From Thecamonas trahens ATCC 50062 (lineage: Eukaryota > Protista > Apusomonadida): DNA of 64,000 nt. Where the stretch lies: the NCBI RefSeq assembly GCF_000142905.1, contig NW_013657645.1, forward strand, positions 186,001-250,000, given 5' to 3'. Shown in pieces: positions 896 to 63,862 of this stretch. The position numbers and the translations under genes are program-made. The notes beneath the pieces are model-generated. The model worked only from the letters and a program-made list of their open reading frames with translations. It was not told where the DNA came from and made no database searches. Each line of letters starts with the position of its first letter. The first letter of the stretch is position 1.

Positions 896-2239
896 CTAAA
901 GCTTGCTCCGCCTCCCGCCGACGGCAGCACGATCGTCGACGGCGGCAAACGACCTCGGCGCCGGGCCGACGTACAGCTGACGCGGGCGGCCGATGACTCG
1001 TGTCGAGTCGGAGATCATCTCCCGCCACTGCGAGATCCAGCCGACGGTGCGGGCGACGGCAAAGAGGACAGTGTACATGTCGCGCGGGATGCCGAGGGCC
1101 CGGAGAATGATGCCCGAGTAAAAGTCGGTGTTGGGATAGAGGCCGCGGGAGACAAAGTACTCATCCTCGAGCGCCACCTTTTCCAGCTCGAGCGCCAGCT
1201 CCATCAGCGGGTCCTCCCGCTGCAGCTTCCCGAGCAGCTCGTGGCAGTACGACTTGAGGATGCGGGCCCGTGGATCGTACGACTTGTACACCCGATGGCC
1301 AAAGCCCATAAGGCGGAACGAGTCGGACTTGTCCTTAGCGCGCGCCACGGCGGCCGGGATCTGATCCACACTCCCAATCTCCTCGAGCATGCGGATGACG
1401 GCCTCGTTGGCGCCACCGTGGGCCGGGCCCCAGAGCGCGGTGATGCCCGACGCAATGGCCGCGTACGGGTTGGCTTCGGACGAGCCAGCAATACGGACGG
1501 TCGACGTCGATGCGTTCTGCTCGTGGTCCATGTGCAGGATCATCCACACCTCGAGCGCCCGCTCGGCAAGTGGATCGACCACGTACTCGGCGCCCGGCTT
1601 GGCGAAGAGCATGTGCAACAGATTGCCGCAGTGAGAGAGCGCGTCACGCGGGTAGACAAACGGCTCTCCCACCGCAGTTTTGTACGCCATAGCCGCCAGG
1701 GTCGGAAGCTTGGCGATGACCCGATACGCCGCCGCCACCTGATCGCCGGCGTCGAAAACGTCAAGCTTGTCGTGGTAAAACGCCGAGAGCGCCCCGACCA
1801 CGCCGACCATGATAGCCATGGGATGAGCGTTGGAGAGAAAGCCGGAGTAAAAGTGGATGAGCCGCTCGTGAACTCGTCGCTCGGCCACGAGCCGGGCTGA
1901 GTGCAGAGCCTTTGCCTTGCGATCGGGCAAGTCGCCAAAAAGGAGCAAGTACGATACGTCATCAAAGTCGCCATCAGCCGCCAACTCCTCGATGGCGTAG
2001 CCGCGATGGAGTAAAACACCGCGAGGACCATCGATGTAGGTAATGGCAGACGCACATGAGCATGTGGCCTTAAAGCCCGGATCGTAGCAAAAGCACCCTG
2101 TCGCGCTGTACACTCCGCGGACGTCGACCACGTCTGGCCCCGAGACGCCACCGTACACCGGCAGCTCCGCCGTCTTGCCGTTTGGCAGCGTCAGTCGTGC
2201 CGTACCCACAACCCGTCCTCCACGCGGTGCTGCTGCCAT
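896..2239 (-). CDS. CS: Citrate synthase (bacterial/type II-like) with C-terminal PTS1, probably peroxisomal
   Basis: YDPGF, ITYIDG..G.L.HRGY, HPM, DHEQNAST, LWGPAHGGAN, LMGFGHRVYK.YDPRA, YPNTDFYSG, RPRQLY; ends in -SKL. Confidence 0.95.
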   Translation of the reverse strand: MAAAPRGGRVVGTARLTLPNGKTAELPVYGGVSGPDVVDVRGVYSATGCFCYDPGFKATCSCASAITYIDGPRGVLLHRGYAIEELAADGDFDDVSYLLLFGDLPDRKAKALHSARLVAERRVHERLIHFYSGFLSNAHPMAIMVGVVGALSAFYHDKLDVFDAGDQVAAAYRVIAKLPTLAAMAYKTAVGEPFVYPRDALSHCGNLLHMLFAKPGAEYVVDPLAERALEVWMILHMDHEQNASTSTVRIAGSSEANPYAAIASGITALWGPAHGGANEAVIRMLEEIGSVDQIPAAVARAKDKSDSFRLMGFGHRVYKSYDPRARILKSYCHELLGKLQREDPLMELALELEKVALEDEYFVSRGLYPNTDFYSGIILRALGIPRDMYTVLFAVARTVGWISQWREMISDSTRVIGRPRQLYVGPAPRSFAAVDDRAAVGGRRSKL

Positions 2240-2445
2240 GGTTGCTGGAGTAAAGTCTGCTGGCTGTGGCTCTGGCTCTGGCTCCCCCCCCCCACCCGTG
2301 CCGCCCGTGCCACCGTGCCCCTGACATGTGCCAAAACCCCCGCACTGCTACAGGAGCCAGTCCCCGCTTTGACGGTGTTGGCCGCGAGATGGGCAGATTT
2401 TACAGATTATAGTGGGCGACGGCACGGGTACAGGCTGGCCGCTGC

Positions 2446-3341
2446 TCACTGGGGGCCAAAGACATCGCGCGGAGACACGGTCTTGCCAGGCTTGCGCTCC
2501 TTCCGCATCGTCGAGGCGCGCGTCGGCTTGGGGAGGACAATCTCGATGCTGGACATCTTGAGAGGGGGAGTCTCACACAACTCTGGGTCGTCCTCGATGA
2601 CACAGCCAGTCTCCTTCATGGCGCGCTCGTGCTCCAGGTAGATGACCGAAATCACGGTCGGAGCGGGGAGGCCATGAACGACATTGCAGATCTCAGGGTC
2701 GGCGCATCCGTACTCGCACACGTCGTCGTCGTCATCATCCCGGGTGCGTTTGCGGCCAGTGATGGAAGACGGTCCTGGCGGCGAGGACGCGTGCGAGTGA
2801 GCACTCAGCGCGGCCCAGTCCAGAGGCTGGGATGGCGGCGAGGTAGCCGGCACCGGTGGGCCACCAGGTCGCCGGTACAAGCAGAATCTTTGAGCGGATC
2901 ACCACCCAGGTACTTGACAATCGCCTTGAGCTGTGTGGTACACGGCTGGGCGCACGCGCTGGCCAGGGTACCGTGATGGTCGCTCAGCATGGCCTTGATA
3001 GCCTTCATCGCATCGGCGCCGCTCACCATGACGTCATCCCTATTCCACTCGGGGCTGAGCACGCACAGGAAGATCTGGATCATCTCAGGCTTGAACAAGC
3101 GAAGTGCATTGGAAAAGGCGTCGTTAGCCTTGCCCTTCTGGGGTCCATACGTGGGGAGAAACGTGTGCAAAGCAAGCAACAGCTGCCGGGACAACTCAAC
3201 CACGGGCATTGCGTCCAGACCAGCGATGTCCTTGAATACCCACACGAGAAGCCCAGCGAGGGACACAGCTGCGAGGTATTCTTCGGATGTCTCATTCAGT
3301 GTCGCAGACGAGGCCTTGGATGAGGTGGAAGACTTGGTCAT
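2446..3341 (-). CDS. Orphan protein A (helical N-terminal domain, Pro/Ser linker, RKRTR NLS-like motif, acidic patch); apparent frameshift near 2858
   Basis: ORF from ATG 3341 (MTKSSTSS...) overlaps ORF 2446..2880. One added base in GGCCCACC joins them (..DLVA-PPVPATS..GRKRTRDDDDDD). No family recognised. Confidence 0.55.
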
Positions 3342-3611
3342 GCTGGACTGGACGGCGGGGGGGGGGGAAGGTGAGCAAGGTTTGGGTGGGGGGTGCCAAA
3401 ATATTTTTTGTGCTGCACACACACCCTTGGCCAGCTTGGTTGACCATTTCGCCGCACGCCGGTTGACGGGTGTCTGGAGCCACCACCTCGAAAACAAAGA
3501 GCGGCGGAAAACGGGCGAGCGAACAATGTCCCCGAGCCAACCGCCACCTGCTGTACATCCCACGAGGGGGGGGCATGGAGACAATGGCCTACCACAACAC
3601 CACCAACAGGT

Positions 3612-4178
3612 GCATGCCGTGACGCACATGGAGGGAGGAACATGGCCGACTACCATGGCCATCCACCATCACTGCCACCCCCACATCCACACCACGTACA
3701 TGCTCTGTAACCGAGTGAGGTGTTGGCGAGTTGGGGTGTGAAGATTCTTGCCCTATGGTGTGTGGCATGGTGGGGAAGCGAGGCCATGGGAGGAGGGCAG
3801 GAGTGAGGAGGAGGGAATGGTGACGGAGAAGGGACCAGGCACCCAGAGGACGCCCATGGGGTGGGACTGTGGCTTGTGGATGGACTGTGGTGGAGGGTGA
3901 TGAGGGTGCGGGGGGTGTGTGTCGTCACAGCAAAGAATGACCGGCTTTCTACTGCTGCGGGTGGGCGCAGGCAAGGAGGGAGACGACGGCCTCGTGTCCG
4001 TGCAGCACAGCATGGGTACCGGAAAAGCCGGTTGGGGGAGGGGGGAGGGTGGGTGTATCGTACGGGTGGTGTAGAGGTCATAGGGAATGCATTATGTGAC
4101 TTTCACCTCTACGGCGCGTATACTTGCCGCGCTGTGGCCATGGGGGGCTCGGCGTGGTCGCCAGGGTGCCGTGGTGTG
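3612..4178. repeat. Left arm of 567-bp inverted repeat
   Basis: Reverse complement of 4482..5048 with about 10 mismatches by manual comparison. Confidence 0.97.
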
Positions 4179-4481
4179 TGTTGTTAACCTTGCGGAGGCG
4201 TCAGTGGCAGCAGCGGCGTCGTTTTGGCGTTCAGACGGCTGCGTTCGCGGCCGTGCGTCGATTGGCAAGCAAAGATGGCCGAAATCCAACGATTAAACTG
4301 GAGAATGACGAAATGAACGAGTGATAATCGAGTGACAAATAATGGAACAAATGACCAAAAAAATGGTGGCCCAGCCATTGGAAGGAATAATTTGCAATTC
4401 CGGGCCGTACGCCGAACGTGGCCTTCTGCGCGCGGAGAGGCACCCCAGCACCACCAGCAGACCCCTGCGGCAGCGACGAGG

Positions 4482-5048
4482 CACACCACGGCACCCTGAC
4501 GACCACGCCGAGCCCCCCATGACCATAGCGCGGCAAGTATACGCGCCGTAGAGGTGAAAGTCGCACAACGCCTTCCCTATGACCTCTACACCACCCGTAC
4601 GACACACCCACCCTCCCCCCTCCCCCAACCGGCTTTTCCGGTACCCATGCTGTGCTGCACGGACACGAGGCCGTCGTCTCCCTCCTTGCCTGCGCCCACC
4701 CGCAGCAGTAGAAAGCCGGTCATTCTTTGCTGTGACGACACACACCCCCCGCACCCTCATCACCCTCCACCACAGTCCATCCACAAGCCACAGTCCCACC
4801 CCATGGGCGTCCTCTGGGTGCCTGGTCCCTTCTCCGTCACCATTGCCTCCTCCTCACTCCTGCCCTCCTCCCATGGCCTCGCTTCCCCGCCATGCCACAC
4901 ACCATAGGGCAAGAATCTTCACACCCCAACTCGCCAACACCTCACTCGGTTACAGAGCATGTACGTGGTGTGGATGTGGGGGTGGCAGTGATGGTGGATG
5001 GCCATGGTAGTCGGCCATGTTCCTCCCTCCATGTGCGTCACGGCATGC
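4482..5048. repeat. Right arm of 567-bp inverted repeat
   Basis: Reverse complement of 3612..4178; the mirrored ORFs 3650..4081(-) and 4579..5010(+) confirm the symmetry. Confidence 0.97.
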
Positions 5049-5347
5049 GCCTCTTTCCTTGGTTGTGGTCTCCTCGACCATGGTCATGGTTGTGGTGGCC
5101 GGTGTGTACACACCAAGTGGCTGCAGAACATGCAGTCAGTCGAAACTGGCCGTTTTTTTGCACTTTGCTATGTGTGCCCTTGCACTTTTGCGCTCGGGGG
5201 CCGTACGACTGCGGGCTGAGAGTCCGTCGGTGCGGCAAGTTTTCACACTGAAAATTCTCCGCACAAGGCCGGTTGATTTTTTTCCCTCAAACCCCCCCTC
5301 ATCCTCACTCACCGTCCCTCAACCTCTCACCCACCTCCAGATCAAAG

Positions 5348-6190
5348 ATGGTCAACTCGAAGCGCGGACAGGGCAACGCCTCGGATTCACGTCCTTTCAA
5401 GCGCGCGCTTGTGCCGCTCACTCAGGGCGTCGAGGGCTCGATGTACAAGAAGAAGCTAAAGGCGCGCCTCGGAAAGGACTCTGTCCCACTCGCTGCTGCC
5501 CACGCACGTTGCTTGCAACTGGCCAAAGACAACACCGGCTGTGACTGGCCCCTTTCCAAGGGCGCTTTCAAGGACTTTGTGCGCGAGGCCTACAATGGTT
5601 ACAAGGATTTCAGTGGCCTGGAAGAGGCCGTGCTTGCTCTCGAGGTCGGCGTGGTCGACATGCGCGTCCTCGCCTTGAAGATCTGTGACAAGCATCACCG
5701 AGCGACCAGGACCGGCGTTAACAAGGCCGCCAAGAAGCAGGACACTACTCCGAAGAACCTCTCTGCTTTGCGTGCCAAGATCGAGGCCAGCGTCAAGGCC
5801 GATTATGACCAGCGTGACGCCGACGAGTGCGTTGCGCGCCTCAACGCCAAGCATGACGCTCTTGTCGAGCGTTTCCTTGCCGCCATGGGGTTCGCCGACA
5901 TGGACATTGCCGACATGGACATCGCTGTGCCATCCGTCACAGCCGCCCCACCTCCTTGCACCCCACACCCGGCTGCAGCGCCCGCCACCGTCGCAAGCGC
6001 CCCCGCCATCGCTAGCCTGTTGTCCTCCCGTATCAAACCACCCTGCCTCGAATCTCTCCCACCGACGTCCCTCACCGCGTTGATCGCGGTCGGCAGAGCC
6101 AGGGAGCGCCCCCAATGCCTCACAACATCCCCGGCTCACCACCACATCAGCAGCGATAACGGCCATGACTGGGTGAAGCTACCATTTTGA
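5348..6190 (+). CDS. Orphan protein B (basic, helical N-terminal ~190 aa, Pro/Ala-rich tail)
   Basis: ATG 5348 (MVNSKRGQG...), strong coding-type codon usage (AAG, GCC, GAC) and a protein-like helical pattern. No family recognised. Confidence 0.65.
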   Translation: MVNSKRGQGNASDSRPFKRALVPLTQGVEGSMYKKKLKARLGKDSVPLAAAHARCLQLAKDNTGCDWPLSKGAFKDFVREAYNGYKDFSGLEEAVLALEVGVVDMRVLALKICDKHHRATRTGVNKAAKKQDTTPKNLSALRAKIEASVKADYDQRDADECVARLNAKHDALVERFLAAMGFADMDIADMDIAVPSVTAAPPPCTPHPAAAPATVASAPAIASLLSSRIKPPCLESLPPTSLTALIAVGRARERPQCLTTSPAHHHISSDNGHDWVKLPF

Positions 6191-6377
6191 ATGCCCTCGA
6201 AAGCGCCAGATCAGTCCCGATGCCCCGCAATCCCCTCGCATCCATTGGCTCGACCAGCGAACTTCCAGCTGCCTTCCCTGCCACCCAGCCGGCTCGACAG
6301 CCGCGGACGGAGTCGACGACCGACGGTGGTACACACGACCCGGGGAGGGAGGCTTTTTGGTGGCTGCTCTGTGGGCA

Positions 6378-7824
6378 ATGCAAAGGACGATGTATGAGGA
6401 TGGGGGAGGGTATGGTCATGCTCATGGTGGTGGCGGGGGTGGCGGTGGGAGGGCTGGCGGGTGGCGGCAGGCCGAGGCAACTGCCAACGGTTCTGGAGGG
6501 TATAGGTATGGGCACGACTACAGAAGTGATGGGCGGAGTTATGGAGGCGATGGGCGGAGCCATGGAATGGGCAATGATCATGGTCGTAGAATTGCTGCTG
6601 ATGGCTCGGGCTACCACCGGAGCCAGGCTACGTCATCGGCTGCTGCCCATGCGCCGTACTCGCCCTCGCACGGCTCGCCCTCGGGCTATCAATCATATGC
6701 CGATGGAAGCGGGCGCAGGTCACGGGCGGGATACTCGCCATACGGTGAGCATGGCGGGTATCCATCGCGGTCAGCCTCGCGGCTGGCGCAGTATGAGAGC
6801 CCGAGTCGTGGTGCTGATGAGTATCGGGCGGCCGAGGCCGAGGCCGAGGCCGGTCCGTGCACGCGCCGCGGCGTACAAGGCGCAGCGGGCGGCGGCGCGG
6901 GAGAGTAGTGGCAACACACCGCGGCGTGGCCAGACGGCGCACATTCTTCCTGGGCGCGAGGTGGTGGGCGAGCCGCCGGCGCGATTTGCAGTCGGCGCCC
7001 ACAATCGATCACGGGTGTCGCGGGCTCTGCAAGCCTCCTCGGAGCCGTCGCCCGAGGTCCAGGCGCTCGATGCCCAGGTCATGGCACGATCGCTGCGGCG
7101 CGAGGCCACCAAGCTCGAATCTGCCGTGGAGACGCTCCGCCATCATCTGACCAACACCGATGACGCCGAGGATCGGCGGCGGATCCAGGCCCGGCTGGCG
7201 TCGCTGCAGGCGCGGGCGGCCGAGATCAAGTCGCAGCAGTCGCGGGTGGAGCACTCGACGCCACCGCGCGTTCTCATTGGTGTGCCTGGCCGCTCGCCGT
7301 CGCGACTCTCGCATGCCCCGCGCTCGGTCGTCCCGCGCGAGGAGCAGACGCGATATGCCCGCGAACTGCAGGCCCAGGTCGAGGAGCGGTCGCGCTGGCG
7401 GCGGCTCAACGAGCCGGCCGGCGATCTCGCAGCTGAGGCCAACGCCCGCAAGCAGCGCGAGAGCTATGCTGCCCGCTGTAACGCCGCCGTTGCAGCCGAG
7501 TCCAAGCGATTCACAAAGCCGGTCGGCGTTACCCTGGAGTCGCAGCCGCGCAAGTCGATCGACATAGAGGCGCGCCGCCAGTACAAGTTGATCCTCGACG
7601 AGCAGCGCAAGGAGCGCACCCGCCTCAAGGCCGCTCCACCGCGCGAGTTCCGCCTGCCCGCCAAAAAGGCCGAGTACATGGAGCCCCACAACTTGTACTC
7701 TTTCAAGCCACCACCGCCTGATCCCGACATGCCCTCTGTGCCCAAGCCGCCGCTCGTCACTCTCGCCACCATGGCCCGCCGCGAAGATCGCCGCCCGCCG
7801 TGGATGAAATCAGAGCGCCCGTAG
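6378..7824 (+). CDS. Gly/Tyr-rich N-terminus plus coiled-coil protein with Y..EL..Q..E motifs (CSPP1/CCDC66-like motif, weak); apparent +1 frameshift near 6850
   Basis: Frame 6357..6908 (MQRTMYEDGGG...EYRAAEAEAEA) continues into frame 6187..7824 (VRARAAAYKAQR...YARELQAQVEER...QYKLILDEQRKER) if one base is removed from GAGGCCGGTCC. Confidence 0.6.
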
Positions 7825-30514: not shown

Positions 30515-30957
30515 GCTCGTCGAGTGAGGTGGAGTCCTTTGCCTTGCCCGCCGTCCCGCCCAACACCACCGATCCCAGGTCCAGCCCCACTCAGCGGCAA
30601 CACCCAGCGGAGCATGCCGCGCATGGTGGCATGCAATCCCTGCATGTCGCCGCCGTCTTTAGACCGCAAGCATCTCGAAATAGTTGGGCATGTGTGGCTA
30701 TCTCGATCCGGCCGGCTAGAGCTGGCGGGCCGAGCCATCACTGGCCAACACACACACACCCACAACCGCCCAACTTGTTGGGAGAGCGAGCATCTCGTGC
30801 AAGTTGGGGATGAAAGGGTGAGTAACCTGTCCCGATCGGTGCGATGGCCACCTTGATGATATGCGGCCGACCTGGCTGAGACGGTGCCATTTGACGGACC
30901 CGGGGGGGGTGGGCGACGGCCGGCAGCTGGAGTGGGAACAGATGACCGGTGACTGAC

Positions 30958-31337
30958 GGATGGCAGGCAGGGCAGGGTGATGGATGGCTGGTAGGGCAGG
31001 GTGATGGATGGCTGGCAGGGCAGGGTGATGTATGGCTGGCAGGGCAGGGTGATGGATGGCTGGTAGGGCAGGGTGATGGATGGCTGGCAGGGTAGGGTGA
31101 TGGATGGCTGGCAGGGCAGGGTGATGGATGGCTGGCAGGGCAGGGTGATGGATGGCAGGCAGGGCAGGGTGATGTATAGCTGGCAGGGCAGGGTGATGGA
31201 TGGCAGGCAGGGCAGGGTGATGTATGGCTGGCAGGGCAGGGTGATGGATGGCTGGCAGGGCAGGGTGATGGATGGCTGGCAGGGCAGGTGGTCAGGTGGC
31301 CAGGCGGCCAGGCGGCCAGGCGGCCAGGCGGCCAGGC
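30958..31337. repeat. 24-bp G-rich minisatellite (~13.8 copies) followed by GGCGGCCA 8-mer repeats
   Basis: Unit GGATGGCTGGCAGGGCAGGGTGAT from 30958 to 31288, in the divergent intergenic region. Confidence 0.95.
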
Positions 31338-31394
31338 GGGCAAGCTGCTCTCTCACCGACTCTCTTTGTCGCTGTGGCCGAGAGCTCGACAGAG

Positions 31395-34227: not shown

Positions 34228-34732
34228 AGTATGAGCTGACGAGAGAATGAGCAGTTGGTGCGTTGCCAGCAGTTGGCGGAGGAATGTACGATCATCGACC
34301 GGTTGTTGCCACTGTGTGAGTGGTGCAACACACACAAATGTGCTTGACAACATCGACAACACCATCAGATCGTGCATCGGGGTGCAATAGCAGTTTTCAC
34401 AAGTCGATGTCTATGGCAGTCAAAGGAATAACTGAGAGAGTTGCAATTTTACACCTCGCTGCGCGAAAGTCGAGGAGATCGAGCATGTGTGAGAGTATGA
34501 GCTGACGAGAGAATGAGCAGTTGGTGCGTTGCCAGCAGTTGGCGGAGGAATGTACGATCATCGACCGGTTGTTGCCACTGTGTGAGTGGTGCAACACACA
34601 CAAATGTGCTTGACAACATCGACAACACCATCAGATCGTGCATCGGGGTGCAATAGCAGTTTTCACAAGTCGATGTCTATGGCAGTCAAAGGAATAACTG
34701 AGAGAGTTGCAATTTTACACCTCGCTGCGCGA
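34228..34732. repeat. Direct duplication of 239 bp (34228..34466 = 34494..34732), period 266
   Basis: The two copies appear identical and are separated by 27 unique bp. Confidence 0.95.
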
Positions 34733-42817: not shown

Positions 42818-45800
42818 ATGGAAGGTACCGTAGGAGGCGACGACGACGCGCGCTGCACGCCCGCAGGTGGAGACGCCGCACGTCCCACCGAGGAGCTCCT
42901 GGCGATCATGCGCACGCTGGCGGCAGCCGTCGTTCGTATGGCGGGCCACCCCGTCGACGCTGTCGAGCGCGCACTCGGCACACTCGCCCATGCAAGGGGC
43001 GAAGCATTTGTGGCAAGCCTTTGTGAGCCACTGGCGGCTCTTGTTGCTGAGTTAGCCGCACCCGAGGCGTCTGGGAGCGGGGACAACAACTGCCGCCATG
43101 CGGTTTTTGGCGAAAGCGGCGAATGCGGCGAAAGCACCGCTGCCACGGGTGATAGCAGCAACGATGACGGCGAGTTGAGCTTCCATGATCCGCTGGCGGC
43201 GCTCCTTGCCGAGCTTGGGGACGACGAGGAAGAAGGTGACCGCGGGGCGGTTACGGCTGACGAGGCTGGGGCTGTGGTTGAGGCCGAGGCCGGGGCTGAG
43301 GTTGATGAGGTGGAGGTGGAGGTGGAGGTCGAGGCCGAGGCTGGGGCTGAGGCGGATGCAGGTGAGACTGGAGCCGAGACCGAGGCTGAAGTGGAGGCCG
43401 AGGTGGAGGTGGAGGTCGAGGCCGAGGCCGAGGCTGGGGCTGAGGCGGATGCAGGTGAGACTGGAGCCGAGACCGAGGCTGGGGCTGAGGCTGATGCAGG
43501 TGAGACTGAAGGCGAGGCCAAGGCTGAAATGGAGGCCGAGGCCGGAGCTGATGTTGATAAGGTCGAGGTGGAGGTCGAGGCCGAGGTCGAGGCTGGGGCC
43601 GAGGCTGATGCGGTTGAGACTGGAGCCGAGACCGAGGCTGAAATGGTAGCCGAGGCCGGGGCTGAAGTGGAGGCCGAGGTCGAGGTTGAGGCCGAGGCTG
43701 GGGCCGAGGCTGATGCGGTTGAGACTGGAGTCGAGACCGAGGCTGGGGCTGAGGCCGATGCAGGTGAGACTGAAGGCGAGGCCAAGGCTGAAATGGAGGC
43801 CGAGGCCGGAGCTGATGTTGATAAGGTCGAGGTCGAGGTCGAGGCCGAGGCCGAGGCTGGGGCCGAGACTGATGCGGTTGAGACTGGAGCCGAGACCGAG
43901 GCTGAAGTGGAGGCCGAGGTGGAGGTGGAGGTGGAGGTCGAGGCCGAGGCCGAGGCTGGGGCTGAGGCGGATGCAGGTGAGACTGAAGGCGAGGCCGAGG
44001 CTGAAATGGAGGCCGAGGCCGGAGCTGATGTTGATAAGGTCGAGGTCGAGGCCGAGGCTGGAGCCGAGGTTGATGAGGTCGAGGCCGAGGTCGAGGTTCA
44101 GGCCGAGGCTGGAGCCGAGGCTGATGCGGTTGAGACTGGAGCCGAGGCCGAGGCTAAAGTGGAGACCGAGTTTGTCGTTGAAGATCAGGCTGAGACTCAG
44201 GCCAAGACTGAGATCAGAGTGGAAGCTGTGGGGCCACCTGCTGATGGCGAGTCGGTCAACCACGAGGCCGAGAGCGGCGCTGGGGATGCGAGTGCTTCTG
44301 CTGCCCTTGCAGCCGGCGTGGTGGCTACCGGCACAGCAGTGGGTCTCGCTGTAGCCGCAACCAGCCAAGTTGAGCCTCACTACGACGGTGAAGTGTGTGA
44401 TGCGGCCGACGGAGGGGAGACCGAGGGCGAGACCGAGGGCGAGACCGAGGGCGAGACCGAGGAAATGAGGTATCGCCCAGCTTCGCCGTGGACTGAGTCG
44501 ATCCTATCGGACTACTCTGATGATCTCGAGCTGGAAGTTGTGGAGGTCGAGCAGCACGGCAACGATGTGGCGCGATCATACACGACGCTCATGGAGATCG
44601 ACGACGCCTTGAACGCCAGGCTTGACACCGAAGACGACATTGATCCTGCCACGCTCATCTCTGAGTGCAGCGGCGTCCACTCATCCGACGACTCTGACTC
44701 GGCCGACCTCGAAGTTTTTGCCACGTTTGCGCTCGAGGATGAGATCGGCGTCCTGCCGTTGGAGCAGCACCGCCGCCGATCGTCAGGCCTGAGCGACTCG
44801 CTAGCTGACGCTGCCAAAGCTGTTGCGTCCGCAGCTGTTGATCCTGTTTCGGATGAAACAGTTGCCGTCGACAACAACGACAACAACACAGGCCAGGCGC
44901 CAAAGACTGCCGCCGAGAAGAGGGAGGTCGTTGAGGATGCCTCGGCTGATGGTGGCTCTAGCCCTGGTGCTGACGCGCCGTCCAGCAACGAACTGGAGCT
45001 CAAGTCTGGCTACATGTCGAAGCGCGGTGGCAAGTTCTCCACCAAGTGGCAGAAGCGCTGGTTCTCGCTCACCGCCGAAGAGTTGATGTACTCGGAAGCA
45101 CCCGACAAGCCGCTCAAGGGCTCGATTGCTATTTCGCGGATCAACCTCGTTACCCAGGTCCACTCACCCAAGCAGGTCAAGGAGCGCCAGCACTGCTTCT
45201 CGGTTGCCGTGCCCGGCAAGACGTACTACATTGACGCCGGCTCCGAGAGTGAGCTCGTGGCCTGGCTCCAGGCTCTCTACCCGCTGCTGGGGCCCACCAT
45301 TGTCGTCGCCGACTGTGTCGGCGACAGCGACGATGCATCGCCACAGGCCTTGCTCCCGGACTCGCCAGGCAAGGACAGCAGCGCTCCTGCCACCCGTCGC
45401 CGCCCGGACAGCCTCGACGACACCACGGTACTCATGTCTGGGTATCTTGTTAAGCGATCGGCGAGCGGTGGGAAGCTGCAGTCGCGGTTTATGACGCTCA
45501 CGCCCAGATTCCTTCGCTATGCGGTCAAGGAGGGCAAGCCAATCAAGTCGGCACTTGCCACCGCCGTCATGATCTGCACGAGGCGTAATGCTGCGGCCGA
45601 AAAGCCGCCGTATGGCTTCAAGATCGCCACCGCAGCGCATGTCGTCTCGCTTTATGCGCCTGACGAGGACACGCTGATCAAGTGGCTCATGGCGCTCGAG
45701 CGTGCCATCGGCGTTCCGGCACCGCCGAGCGATCCGCTTGAGTGCTACACCATCTGGCGCAAGGCCTTTGAGTGCGAGAACCTCGCAACCATGTGCGCAT

Positions 45801-47206: not shown

Positions 47207-47611
47207 TAGCGTGGTCCTCCTGCGTAGTTGTAAATGACACGAATTTGCTTTGGCACAGAGCACAAGTGCAACCATTCAGCCGTGATGGTCCACGTACTGA
47301 GCGCTGTGGAGTTTGTGTCGCCTTGCTCCCATTGCGCTGCGTGGCCTGATTCAGGCCGTCTGAATCAGCAACTCGCAGCGCACCTGCGGCAGGTGCGCTG
47401 TGAGTCGCTGCCCGCCGATCGTTTACGGGAAAATGCGGGATTCCTCGAGATTTACGAGAGATGGACACGACAGCATACATCTACAATTACACAGCATGAC
47501 CCACAGTGTACAATGTACGGCATGTTGGTGGCTCTAACGATTAGGCTACATGCAGTTGCATCTCGCACTGGGTAGGCGTAGCTATCATGAACGCAAAAAA
47601 ACATGACAAAT

Positions 47612-47775
47612 AGGCCCTCATGCACCAAATATAATACTTTTAATTTTACTACATTGACTTTTTATAACAAATTCAAATTATCACTCTACAAAATATATTT
47701 TCATAGTATTACAATTTTGAATATATATATTTCTATAGTTCACAACACAGCAGATGTACAAGGCCCTAATCCAAC
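47612..47775. other. Extreme AT-rich island flanked by imperfect 15-bp direct repeats
   Basis: 47631..47740 has 17 G+C in 110 nt; AGGCCCTCATGCACC (47612) and AGGCCCTAATCCAAC (47761). Confidence 0.85.
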
Positions 47776-48033
47776 TCTGTGAAACTCCCTCGCCGCCCTA
47801 GCGCACTACATACAAGTAGGCATCTTAATAGCACCTCGTGATCATTGCTGCATTTTACACTTTATGCTTGCTGCATTTGATGGTCTACCAAAAGTCTACC
47901 CATGGAGATATAGGTGATCGCGCCGTCTCGCGAGCTTGGGTGGGAGGGCATGTCGGACTCGTTTGGCAGACATCCGTGCGAGCAACTCCTGTCCTCTTCC
48001 TTCTCACACATCTCTCTCTCTCTCCTCTGCCAA

Positions 48034-62471: not shown

Positions 62472-63862
62472 ATGGCTGCTGCCACACGCACAGGCTTTGG
62501 CCACGAGCACGACGCCTTTGTCCGTGCGGTGCCGGTCAAGCACGTACGTCCCGGGAGGAAGGGAGAGGGGGAGGCAGAGGAGGCACACCCCGCCATGGTG
62601 GCACACACTCACACATGCGACTGCAACACCACCCCGGACTGGCATGGCACCACCACGGACTGGCATGGCACCTCCACGGACTGGCATGGCACCACCACGG
62701 ACTGGCATGGCACCACCACGGACTGGCATGGCACCACCACGGACTGGCATGGCACCACCACGGACTGGCATATGACACCCTCACGGGCTCGGTTGCCCTG
62801 TTACCCACTCGGATGACATCGCGCACGCTACGCCATGCGAGGAGACAGGCCACGGTGGACGACGAGTACGTGACGTACTACGATGTGGGCCCACGGAGCG
62901 TGACCGGGGCAGAGACGAGCAGCAGGCTCGAGGGCGACGAAACCACTCCGCCACTGATATGCATCGGCGGCCTGGCCGAGTCGGCAGCGTGCTTCTTCCG
63001 ACAGCTGCTCTCGCTGGGATCGCTCGGCTATCGTGTGGTGGCCCTCTCGCTGCCGCCGCGCCAAACGTTTCCAGGCCTGGCAGCTGTGGTGATCGGCCTC
63101 TGCGCCCACCTTGGCATCGACCGCGCTGTGCTTGTTGGCTCGGGCCTCGGCGGGTTTGTGGCTCAGGTCGTTACGCAAGAGTGTCCGGACCTGGCTGCCG
63201 GCCTGGTCCTCATCAACGCATTTGTGGACCTGGCGCACTTTGCCTCTGACCTCTCGTGCGTCCCACTCATCGGCTTTATGCCCGACGTCATCATCCGCCG
63301 CAAGCTGCTCTCGCGGCTGCCGTCGGGGCTTGTCGCTCCCGAGGTGGCCGACTCGATCGACTTTATGGTCGAGCAGGTTGAGCAGCTCCCGCGCAACGCC
63401 ATCATCTCCCGCTGCCGGGCTCTGGCCTCGCACTACGACCTCGACGGACCGGTCCCGCTCGATGAGGACCACATCCTCATCATCGACGCACTCGACGACG
63501 TCGCTGTCCCGCCCAAAGCCCGCGCCGAAGTGGTCAAGTTTTATCCCAACGCCCGGGTTGCGGAGCTCAAGACCGGCTCCAACTTTCCGCACCTAGCTGT
63601 CGCCCTCGACGTCCACATGCACATGCAGGTTTTCTTCCGCGCCTGCGGCTGGGCTCCGGCCAACTCGGAGCCCGACGAGCCCGAGCCAGCTGACCACCCG
63701 TCGAACTCCGAGCCGCTACCGGATGCGTCGAGCATGCCGTTCCCCACCGCCACGCTCCCGTCGTGGTCTTCGGCCTCGGCCGCACCCGCACCCGTTGTCT
63801 TTGACTCGTTCTCTGGCGGCTTTGACGAAGCCGACGACGAGGACGCCGCCGACTTTTTCTAA
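62472..63862 (+). CDS. SPG21: Maspardin (alpha/beta-hydrolase fold); join(62472..62543, 62849..63862)
   Basis: F...VP.K, YD.GPRS, PLIC.GG, FFRQLL.L...GYRV, G..LGGF.AQ, SIDFMVEQ, Y.NARVAELKTGSNFP.L; phase-0 GTACGT...ACAG intron. Confidence 0.9.
62635..62771. repeat. 21-bp minisatellite (~6.5 copies) in the SPG21 intron
   Basis: Unit CGGACTGGCATGGCACCACCA in tandem with no spacers. Confidence 0.95.

What the first reader, a model, noticed from the sequence alone, without database searches (positions are those of the whole stretch)
2446..6190. Two unrelated orphan genes pointing away from a 567-bp inverted repeat: duplicated promoter or flip-flop switch
Seen: arms 3612..4178 and 4482..5048 (~10 mismatches) enclose a 303-bp spacer with an asymmetric A-rich core (~4270-4400). 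Orphan A starts 271 bp outside the left arm and orphan B 300 bp outside the right arm, both reading outward. The two proteins show no similarity to each other. Known: recombination between inverted repeats inverts the enclosed DNA, as in flip-flop mating-type switching in methylotrophic yeasts and in phase-variable promoters. IR-core-IR is also the centromere layout in Komagataella. Inference: the arms give both genes the same upstream region, and the orientation of the spacer could select which is expressed. A two-state locus (mating-type-like or toxin/antidote) is one possibility; a centromere or hairpin-RNA source is another.
Basis: partly seen in the sequence, partly recalled or inferred. 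Interest (0 to 1): 0.78.

Follow-up and report, generated by a model that had tools for sequence, protein, structure and literature searches.

The report
Mirrored first exon serving two genes
In the marine protist Thecamonas trahens, two unrelated genes of unknown function point away from a 567-base mirror repeat and, in one RNA-like dataset, both are spliced from the same first exon inside that repeat, so they likely share one duplicated promoter and are likely switched on together rather than alternately.

Summary
The repeat is real (arms 3612-4178 and 4482-5048, 10 mismatches) and both outer junctions recur in an independent sample. The window is Thecamonas trahens (AMSG_07635/07636). One cDNA-like run shows two mirror-image GT..AG introns (3348-3699, 4961-5340): each orphan gene is spliced from the same donor inside its own arm, so the arms hold a shared leader exon and probably the promoter. 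Both genes appear transcribed in that run. Both have second, distally diverged versions (one is AMSG_10914, on another contig), and arm alleles are reshuffled between samples, pointing to recombination among arms. Two metagenome contigs join the spacer the other way round, but an assembler could have chosen that path, so flipping is possible, not shown. The start site is unmapped, so an orientation-dependent promoter in the spacer is not excluded. The genes lie outside the invertible part, unlike yeast flip-flop mating-type loci; the arms are transcribed, unlike Komagataella centromeres. No protein homologue or fold was found. Best reading: an inverted promoter/first-exon duplication co-regulating a fast-changing gene pair.

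The parts
3612..4178 (.). Left arm of the inverted repeat; carries the leader exon, splice donor and first 88 nt of the intron of gene A
4482..5048 (.). Right arm; carries the same leader exon, donor and first 88 nt of the intron of gene B
4179..4481 (.). Unique 303-bp spacer; candidate invertible segment; 1-5 substitutions in other samples
4304..4366 (+). Seven A[AG]TG[AG] words 8-12 nt apart in the A-rich core; candidate protein-binding array (inferred, motif chosen after seeing the sequence)
   Evidence: 7 observed, 0.8 expected, 0 of 20000 shuffles; next densest place in the window has 6
3700..3734 (-). Seen part of gene A's leader exon (5' end not mapped)
   Evidence: run X5 record 17
3348..3699 (-). 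352-nt GT..AG intron of gene A, acceptor 6 nt before the ATG
   Evidence: joint 3347|3700
4926..4960 (+). Seen part of gene B's leader exon, exact mirror of 3700-3734
   Evidence: run X5 record 20
4961..5340 (+). 380-nt GT..AG intron of gene B, acceptor 7 nt before the ATG
   Evidence: joint 4960|5341
4579..4596 (+). Further upstream exon implied by the database model AMSG_07636 (with exon 4908-4960); not seen in RNA contigs; doubtful
2446..3341 (-). Orphan gene A (AMSG_07635); frame broken at 2867-2899 in the window, one 301-aa frame in run X1; second version diverges below 2800 (AMSG_10914)
5348..6190 (+). Orphan gene B (N-terminal part of the fused model AMSG_07636); 280 aa in the window, 222 aa in X1/X4; second version diverges after 5964
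896..2239 (-). Left neighbour: citrate synthase (not part of the cassette)
   Evidence: PF00285 E 1e-127
6378..7824 (+). Right neighbour: gene of unknown function, fused to B in the database model; probably separate (inferred)

Best explanation
The two arms are mirror copies of the front end of a gene: in one cDNA-like run both orphan genes are spliced from the same donor inside their own arm, so they share a leader exon and likely an identical promoter, likely kept alike by recombination between arms, which would make the two genes a co-expressed pair rather than a two-state switch. Shown: the repeat, the two mirror introns, spliced contigs for both genes in one run, second versions of both genes, reshuffled arm alleles. 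Inferred: that transcription starts inside the arms; that an old inverted duplication of promoter + leader exon + intron start created the layout; that gene conversion and occasional crossover homogenise the arms and, as a by-product, sometimes invert the spacer; that a second cassette (A' = AMSG_10914 and B') exchanges its central ~3.2 kb with this one; that the two small, predicted helical proteins with basic, NLS-like patches work together in the nucleus as a fast-changing two-component module.
For:: joints 3347|3700 and 4960|5341 are exact mirrors (3700+4960 = 8660, the repeat's axis), both GT..AG with donor GTACGT, in run X5 only (1 of 7 runs laid); contigs of X1, X4 and X8 cross the B intron acceptor unspliced and X1 the A acceptor. 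The database model of B uses the same donor and acceptor (may rest on the same cDNA). Codon model trained on 11 window genes scores B positive at the low end of those genes (0.063 vs 0.065-0.146), the two halves of A weakly (0.015), and most arm windows negative. Recombination among arms: alleles at 4134/4138 are swapped relative to the spacer in X1, X7, L002 and L004, and X4 holds both forms on the 4481 side; X1 has one collapsed arm contig with 9 substitutions and 1 deletion against the window; X2 has two arm haplotypes at 4845/4869 that match neither window arm. Second copies: AMSG_10914 on another contig; three of its residue changes and its end match X5's variants and loose end at 2800 (read by eye); B runs into a related but different tail after 5964 in X5 and X11. 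The unique intron parts align better than any of 4906 control windows, suggesting older, longer homology.
Against: The transcription start is not mapped: only 35 nt of the exon are seen, and the database model places another exon at 4579-4596, closer to the spacer. Splicing rests on one run, one contig per joint, and that run is listed as 'DNA?' with no library record; I call it cDNA because of the joints. Contigs are collapsed graph paths, so the A transcript may come mainly from the second copy, and expression of this locus's own B is not shown (X5's B contig takes the other tail). That A' and B' sit together in a second cassette is not shown. Co-expression in a culture is not co-expression in a cell. 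No function for either protein was found.
Confidence: 0.6

Rival explanations
1. Flip-flop switch: an oriented promoter or enhancer in the A-rich spacer fires through one arm; crossover in the arms turns it towards the other gene, and because the leader exon and donor are identical either gene is spliced correctly. Two cell states (A-on, B-on) would result.
For: L002 and L004 (2 of 2 contigs from this locus among 4 pattern hits) join the spacer's 4179 end through an arm to the B flank, the reverse of the window. Reciprocal allele swap at 4134/4138 is what crossovers would leave. The core is strand-asymmetric with seven same-direction motif copies. Donor-like sites and a modelled exon lie nearer the spacer.
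Against: The arms hold identical runs of up to 241 bp, so a short-read assembler can join either spacer end to either flank; L002 and L004 disagree on the outer-arm haplotype and may not be independent. 4091-4097 and 4161 stay with their spacer end in L002/L004, so one simple crossover does not explain the swap; exchange among four arm copies would. Both genes have spliced contigs in one run. No recombinase among the 25 window ORFs scanned. The modelled upstream intron is C-rich throughout, unlike the two seen introns.
Confidence: 0.14
2. Selfish or mobile two-gene element (toxin-antidote pair, or a transposon-derived unit with promoter-bearing repeats turned inside out), inserted next to citrate synthase and copied to a second locus.
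For: No homologue outside this species; second copies; 8 of 8 substitutions seen in B change the residue and none is at a third position (p 0.04, post hoc, one is a single low-depth contig); one allele of A is frame-broken; identical promoters suit a fixed-ratio pair. MuDR repeats carry promoters for two different genes (PMC10401008, passages).
Against: No transposase or viral match; no target-site duplication at the arm ends (longest shared word 4 nt); no repeat at the genes' far ends; the cassette is tied to the same flanks in X4 (to 6287) and X2 (to 6134); 2 of 6 substitutions in A are silent. Not exclusive of the best explanation.
Confidence: 0.16
3. Small inverted-repeat centromere (repeat - core - repeat) with the two genes as bystanders.
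For: Layout and possible core-orientation polymorphism resemble Komagataella centromeres (PMC5010909, passages).
Against: Those are 2-kb arms around 1 kb in 6-9 kb without transcription; here the arms are 567 bp and supply spliced exons.
Confidence: 0.03
4. Hairpin-RNA source: read-through across both arms yields double-stranded RNA that regulates the two genes.
For: A transcript across 3612-5048 would pair over 567 bp.
Against: The joints seen run outward from each arm; no contig of X5 crosses the spacer (absence in contigs proves nothing); no Rfam family at threshold.
Confidence: 0.04
5. Assembly artefact: one arm is a spurious duplicate.
For: The window has local differences from every run that covers them (5227; 2867-2899), so the reference is imperfect here.
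Against: X1 has both outer junctions (2696-3641, 5019-6056) and a contig with arm sequence on both sides of the spacer (4098-4562); so do X7, L002 and L004 for the spacer; both mirror splice joints exist.
Confidence: 0.02

Closest known systems
MuDR (maize Mutator) terminal inverted repeats
   Same: Two near-identical inverted repeats carry the promoters of two different genes, mudrA and mudrB (PMC10401008, passages read).
   Different: MuDR's genes lie inside the repeats and one is a transposase; here the genes lie outside and read away, there is no transposase match and no target-site duplication.
Flip/flop (FF1/FF2) mating-type switching of Ogataea and Komagataella
   Same: Recombination in an inverted repeat can invert the enclosed DNA (PMC6692504, passages read).
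   Different: [quoted passage not shown]
Komagataella phaffii inverted-repeat centromeres
   Same: Repeat - unique core - repeat, near-identical arms, core orientation differing between isolates through recombination in the arms (PMC5010909, passages read).
   Different: About four times larger, untranscribed and CenH3-bound; here the arms are exonic/intronic.
Bacterial invertible promoters (fim switch, Hin) - recalled, no call
   Same: An enclosed oriented element could point at one of two neighbours.
   Different: Those use short repeats and a dedicated site-specific recombinase; here the arms are 567 bp and no recombinase was seen in the window.
Concerted evolution of palindrome arms and head-to-head duplicated genes (e.g. 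inverted hsp70 pairs, sex-chromosome palindromes) - recalled, no call
   Same: Inverted copies kept alike by gene conversion, with occasional inversion of the spacer.
   Different: In those cases whole genes are duplicated; here only the 5' regulatory end is shared and the coding parts are unrelated.

Membership tests
Flip/flop mating-type locus | Two alternative genes lie inside the invertible region | tested here: not met
   Both genes lie outside the arms; the spacer is 303 bp
Flip/flop mating-type locus | Both orientations occur through recombination in the repeat | tested here: inconclusive
   L002/L004 inverted, assembler choice not excluded; reciprocal allele swap seen
Flip/flop mating-type locus | One gene set silenced according to orientation | tested here: inconclusive
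   Both genes spliced in one population-level run; second copies confound
Flip/flop mating-type locus | Genes encode mating-type regulators (HMG, homeodomain, alpha box; recalled) | tested here: not met
   No Pfam hit above cut-off for A or B
Inverted-repeat centromere (Komagataella type) | 6-9 kb untranscribed region | tested here: not met
   Exons inside both arms; whole intergenic span about 2 kb
Inverted-repeat centromere (Komagataella type) | CenH3 bound on the core | not testable with these tools
   Needs ChIP
MuDR-like / TIR DNA transposon | Repeats at the element's ends with genes inside | tested here: not met
   Repeats are central; none at the far ends
MuDR-like / TIR DNA transposon | Target-site duplication | tested here: not met
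   Longest word shared by the 30-nt outer flanks is 4 nt
MuDR-like / TIR DNA transposon | Transposase gene | tested here: not met
   No family, sequence or fold match; models too poor to exclude a remote fold
MuDR-like / TIR DNA transposon | Repeats supply the 5' ends of two different genes | tested here: met
   Mirror splice joints; the promoter itself is inferred
Dispersed MITE / foldback family | Many copies across the genome unlinked to these genes | not testable with these tools
   No genome held; no further copy in the 64-kb window; extra arm haplotypes exist
Toxin-antidote element | One product toxic, the other rescuing; presence/absence between isolates | not testable with these tools
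   No empty site seen in the 7 runs laid, but cover is partial

The most novel reading that the evidence does not exclude
A eukaryotic invertible-promoter switch: a 303-bp oriented core flips between two arms that encode the same leader exon and splice donor, so that one promoter is spliced into either of two unrelated nuclear proteins, giving two heritable cell states (mating-type-like or self/non-self) in an apusomonad, the sister lineage of animals and fungi (recalled).
Probability: 0.12. Interest if true: 0.88.

Novelty: new variant of a known kind. Interest (0 to 1): 0.52.

Why it matters
Each ingredient is known (promoter-bearing inverted repeats, conversion between palindrome arms, spacer inversion), but a mirrored promoter-plus-first-exon feeding two unrelated genes outward was not found in my paper searches (listings only). 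It offers a simple way to lock two genes to one regulatory input and keep them locked as it evolves. It also picks out a species-restricted, duplicated, apparently fast-changing gene pair in a lineage where my searches showed no title on mating types or selfish elements, and a flip test needs only four PCR primers. It corrects two database models (a probably spurious intron in AMSG_07635; a probable fusion in AMSG_07636).

Tried and rejected
Whole-genome copy count: no genome is held. Rfam on 2200-6400: 2 matches, both far below threshold; no tRNA in the window. Protein searches: B gave no hit among proteins of 154-490 aa and, among 1.84 billion representatives, only its own fused model and one 28% match to B's Pro/Ala-rich tail, dismissed as compositional; A gave only itself and AMSG_10914 (lengths outside the searched ranges not seen). 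Pfam DUF7726 at E 0.016-0.03 is below cut-off; PHROGs none; PDB by sequence best E 0.12 and 0.29; viral contigs none for either; prokaryote genomes none for an arm pattern. Single-sequence folds had pLDDT 45.5 and 40.1; the fold search of B found nothing at E <= 0.001 and is not meaningful; A's model was not searched. Atlas: A best 0.80 (chance level), B no usable hit. A-B complex prediction: no verdict, score 0.00, no evidence either way. L001 and L003 match only about 32 nt and were dropped (2 of 4 loci). Contig depth was not used as copy number or expression. Gaps in X5 cover (spacer, most of the arms) were not used to place the start site. An ankyrin-like reading and a 155-aa ORF across arm and spacer (4293-4760, minus) were rejected: negative codon score and 1-nt indels at 4726 and 4512 in other samples. 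Residual symmetry inside the spacer is weak (32 of 2000 shuffles, 63 of 4230 control windows reach it); spacer RNA fold z -1.5. Earlier-findings look-ups by place and sequence were empty.
Full report
OBSERVATION. The inverted repeat is as described: arms 3612-4178 and 4482-5048, 567 bp, 10 mismatches, 303-bp spacer. Nothing comparable lies elsewhere in the 64 kb. Mismatches crowd towards the spacer (8 of 10 in the inner 122 bp, p 1.4e-4). The core is among the 0.3% most AT-rich 131-bp windows and holds seven same-strand A[AG]TG[AG] words at 8-12-nt spacing (motif picked after inspection). The neighbours are ordinary eukaryotic genes, citrate synthase on the left. Gene A matches AMSG_07635 of Thecamonas trahens ATCC 50062 at 100% and B is the N-terminal part of AMSG_07636. 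A and B are not alike.

THE ARMS ARE THE FRONT END OF BOTH GENES. I laid 7 of the 24 listed runs. One, X5 (coded organism A, presumably the window's species; listed as 'DNA?', library not on record), has two joints: 3347|3700 (352 nt, GT..AG on the minus strand) and 4960|5341 (380 nt, GT..AG on the plus strand). 3700 and 4960 are mirror positions of the repeat; both donors read GTACGT and both acceptors lie 6-7 nt before the ATG. The other six runs show no joint, and several cross these places unspliced, so I read X5 as cDNA. Each joint rests on one contig with 35 nt on the short side. The database model of B uses the same donor and acceptor, though it may derive from the same data. Thus the outer 88 bp of each arm are intron, the next stretch is exon, and what lies inward is further leader or promoter. 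The start site is not seen. The model adds an 18-nt exon at 4579-4596, but the intron it needs is C-rich throughout, whereas both seen introns go from G-rich to C-rich, so I doubt it. An ATG at 4892 and its mirror would be in frame with A and out of frame with B; the modelled leader is in frame with B and stops on A's ATG; so the shared exon cannot code in the same way for both and is most simply a leader (inference).

NOT AN ARTEFACT; MORE THAN TWO ARMS. Run X1 has both outer junctions and a contig with arm sequence on both sides of the spacer; X7 has the latter too. A has a second copy, AMSG_10914, on a 184,978-bp contig, this locus being on a 361,230-bp one. X5's A contig carries variants that match three residue changes of AMSG_10914, and forks at 2800 into the window's 3' part and one that reads as AMSG_10914's end (by eye). 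X4 and X11 hold a 41-nt match at 2412-2452 with related but different flanks, a diverged 3' end that keeps A's stop. B forks after 5964 into a related tail in X5 and X11, while X1, X2 and X4 follow the window. The forks lie 1530 and 1634 bp from the axis. X2 has two arm haplotypes at 4845/4869, neither equal to a window arm. The simplest reading (inferred) is a second cassette whose central ~3.2 kb is nearly identical to this one; that A' and B' are neighbours is not shown, and alleles of a diploid cannot be excluded for B.

EXCHANGE BETWEEN ARMS, AND FLIPPING. In the window the spacer's 4179 end is flanked by G4134/C4138 and the 4481 end by the mirrored A/T. In X1, X7, L002 and L004 it is the reverse on both sides, and X4 has both forms on the 4481 side; these sites are close enough to the spacer to be phased in the contigs. 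X1's arm is one contig with 9 substitutions and 1 deletion against the window, as if both arms had changed together (bubble removal could mimic this). L002 and L004 join the 4179 end through an arm to the B flank, i.e. inverted. Against reading this as proof: identical runs of up to 241 bp let an assembler take either path, the two contigs differ in outer-arm haplotype and may not be independent, and 4091-4097 and 4161 are not swapped, so a single crossover is not enough. Recombination among arms is well supported; inversion is plausible and would be expected as a by-product, as at Komagataella centromeres (PMC5010909, passages); regulated switching is not shown. The unique intron parts score above all 4906 control windows when aligned (38 vs best 29 and 33), hinting that the repeat once reached further; few controls are introns, so this is weak.

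THE PROTEINS. In the window A changes frame at 2867-2899; both runs covering the spot have a version 10 nt longer, and applying X1's variants gives one 301-aa frame. No run laid supports the window's version, and X5 shows no joint where the database model places an intron, so it is an assembly flaw or a patched allele. B is 280 aa in the window and X2, 222 aa with a basic tail in X1 and X4. Both have basic NLS-like patches and A a Cys3-His cluster (read from the sequence; motif names recalled). No homologue, family or fold was found; the models are poor. All 8 substitutions seen in B change the residue, 4 of 6 in A: no sign of constraint on B, a weak post hoc hint of diversification.

MECHANISM. 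Most likely (0.6) an old inverted duplication of promoter, leader exon and intron start placed two genes under one regulatory input, and recombination keeps the copies in step, giving a co-expressed pair. A selfish two-gene element (0.16) is compatible with this and fits orphan status and duplication but lacks transposase, target-site duplication and terminal repeats. A true flip-flop switch (0.14) needs a start or enhancer in the spacer acting in one direction; the oriented motif array and the inverted contigs keep it alive. Centromere, hairpin RNA and artefact are unlikely.

COMPARISON AND NOVELTY. It works like MuDR's repeats, which carry promoters for two different genes (PMC10401008, passages), but turned outward; it is not a member. 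It fails membership of flip/flop mating-type loci, where the genes are inside the inverted region and move to a silenced site (PMC6692504, passages), and of Komagataella-type centromeres. Paper searches for Thecamonas with inverted repeat (2 papers), transposable element (12) or ploidy (2), and for this architecture (1), showed no title on this locus; I saw listings only, and the library lacks most subscription papers. The scan's own notes hold nothing on this DNA; one loosely similar bacterial case was listed and not tested. Verdict: real, new variant of a known kind, interest 0.52.

Noticed in passing
window 4088-4097 / 4563-4572: Four arm mismatches exactly 3 nt apart; in the outward frame that contains ATG 4579 both arms give the same residues across them. 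Relic coding exon or chance; unexplained.
   Followed up: partly
window 4404-4413: A palindromic site in the spacer gives a GTACG donor-like word on both strands (4407 plus, 4410 minus).
   Followed up: no
window 3411-3573 and 5138-5366: Run X5 also has contigs inside the unique parts of both introns: unspliced RNA, alternative starts or DNA carry-over.
   Followed up: no
window 34228-34732: Perfect 239-nt direct repeat, 266 nt apart; possible assembly overlap or recent tandem duplication.
   Followed up: no
window 47511-47842: Strongly AT-rich island in a 63% GC window; candidate centromere, origin or foreign insert.
   Followed up: no
window 30882-31385, 62606-62794, 43169-44212: Tandem arrays of 24-nt and 21-nt units, and a long Glu/Ala-rich coding repeat in a multi-PH-domain gene.
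   Followed up: no
window 896-2239: Intron-less citrate synthase whose N-terminus looks bacterial-type by eye, with no obvious targeting peptide; origin not tested.
   Followed up: no
window 5227: All 7 runs laid read G where the window has T: likely reference error.
   Followed up: yes
window 3612-4178: CATG words are about three times denser in the arms than in the window (17.6 vs 5.2 per kb) and CpG is lower.
   Followed up: no
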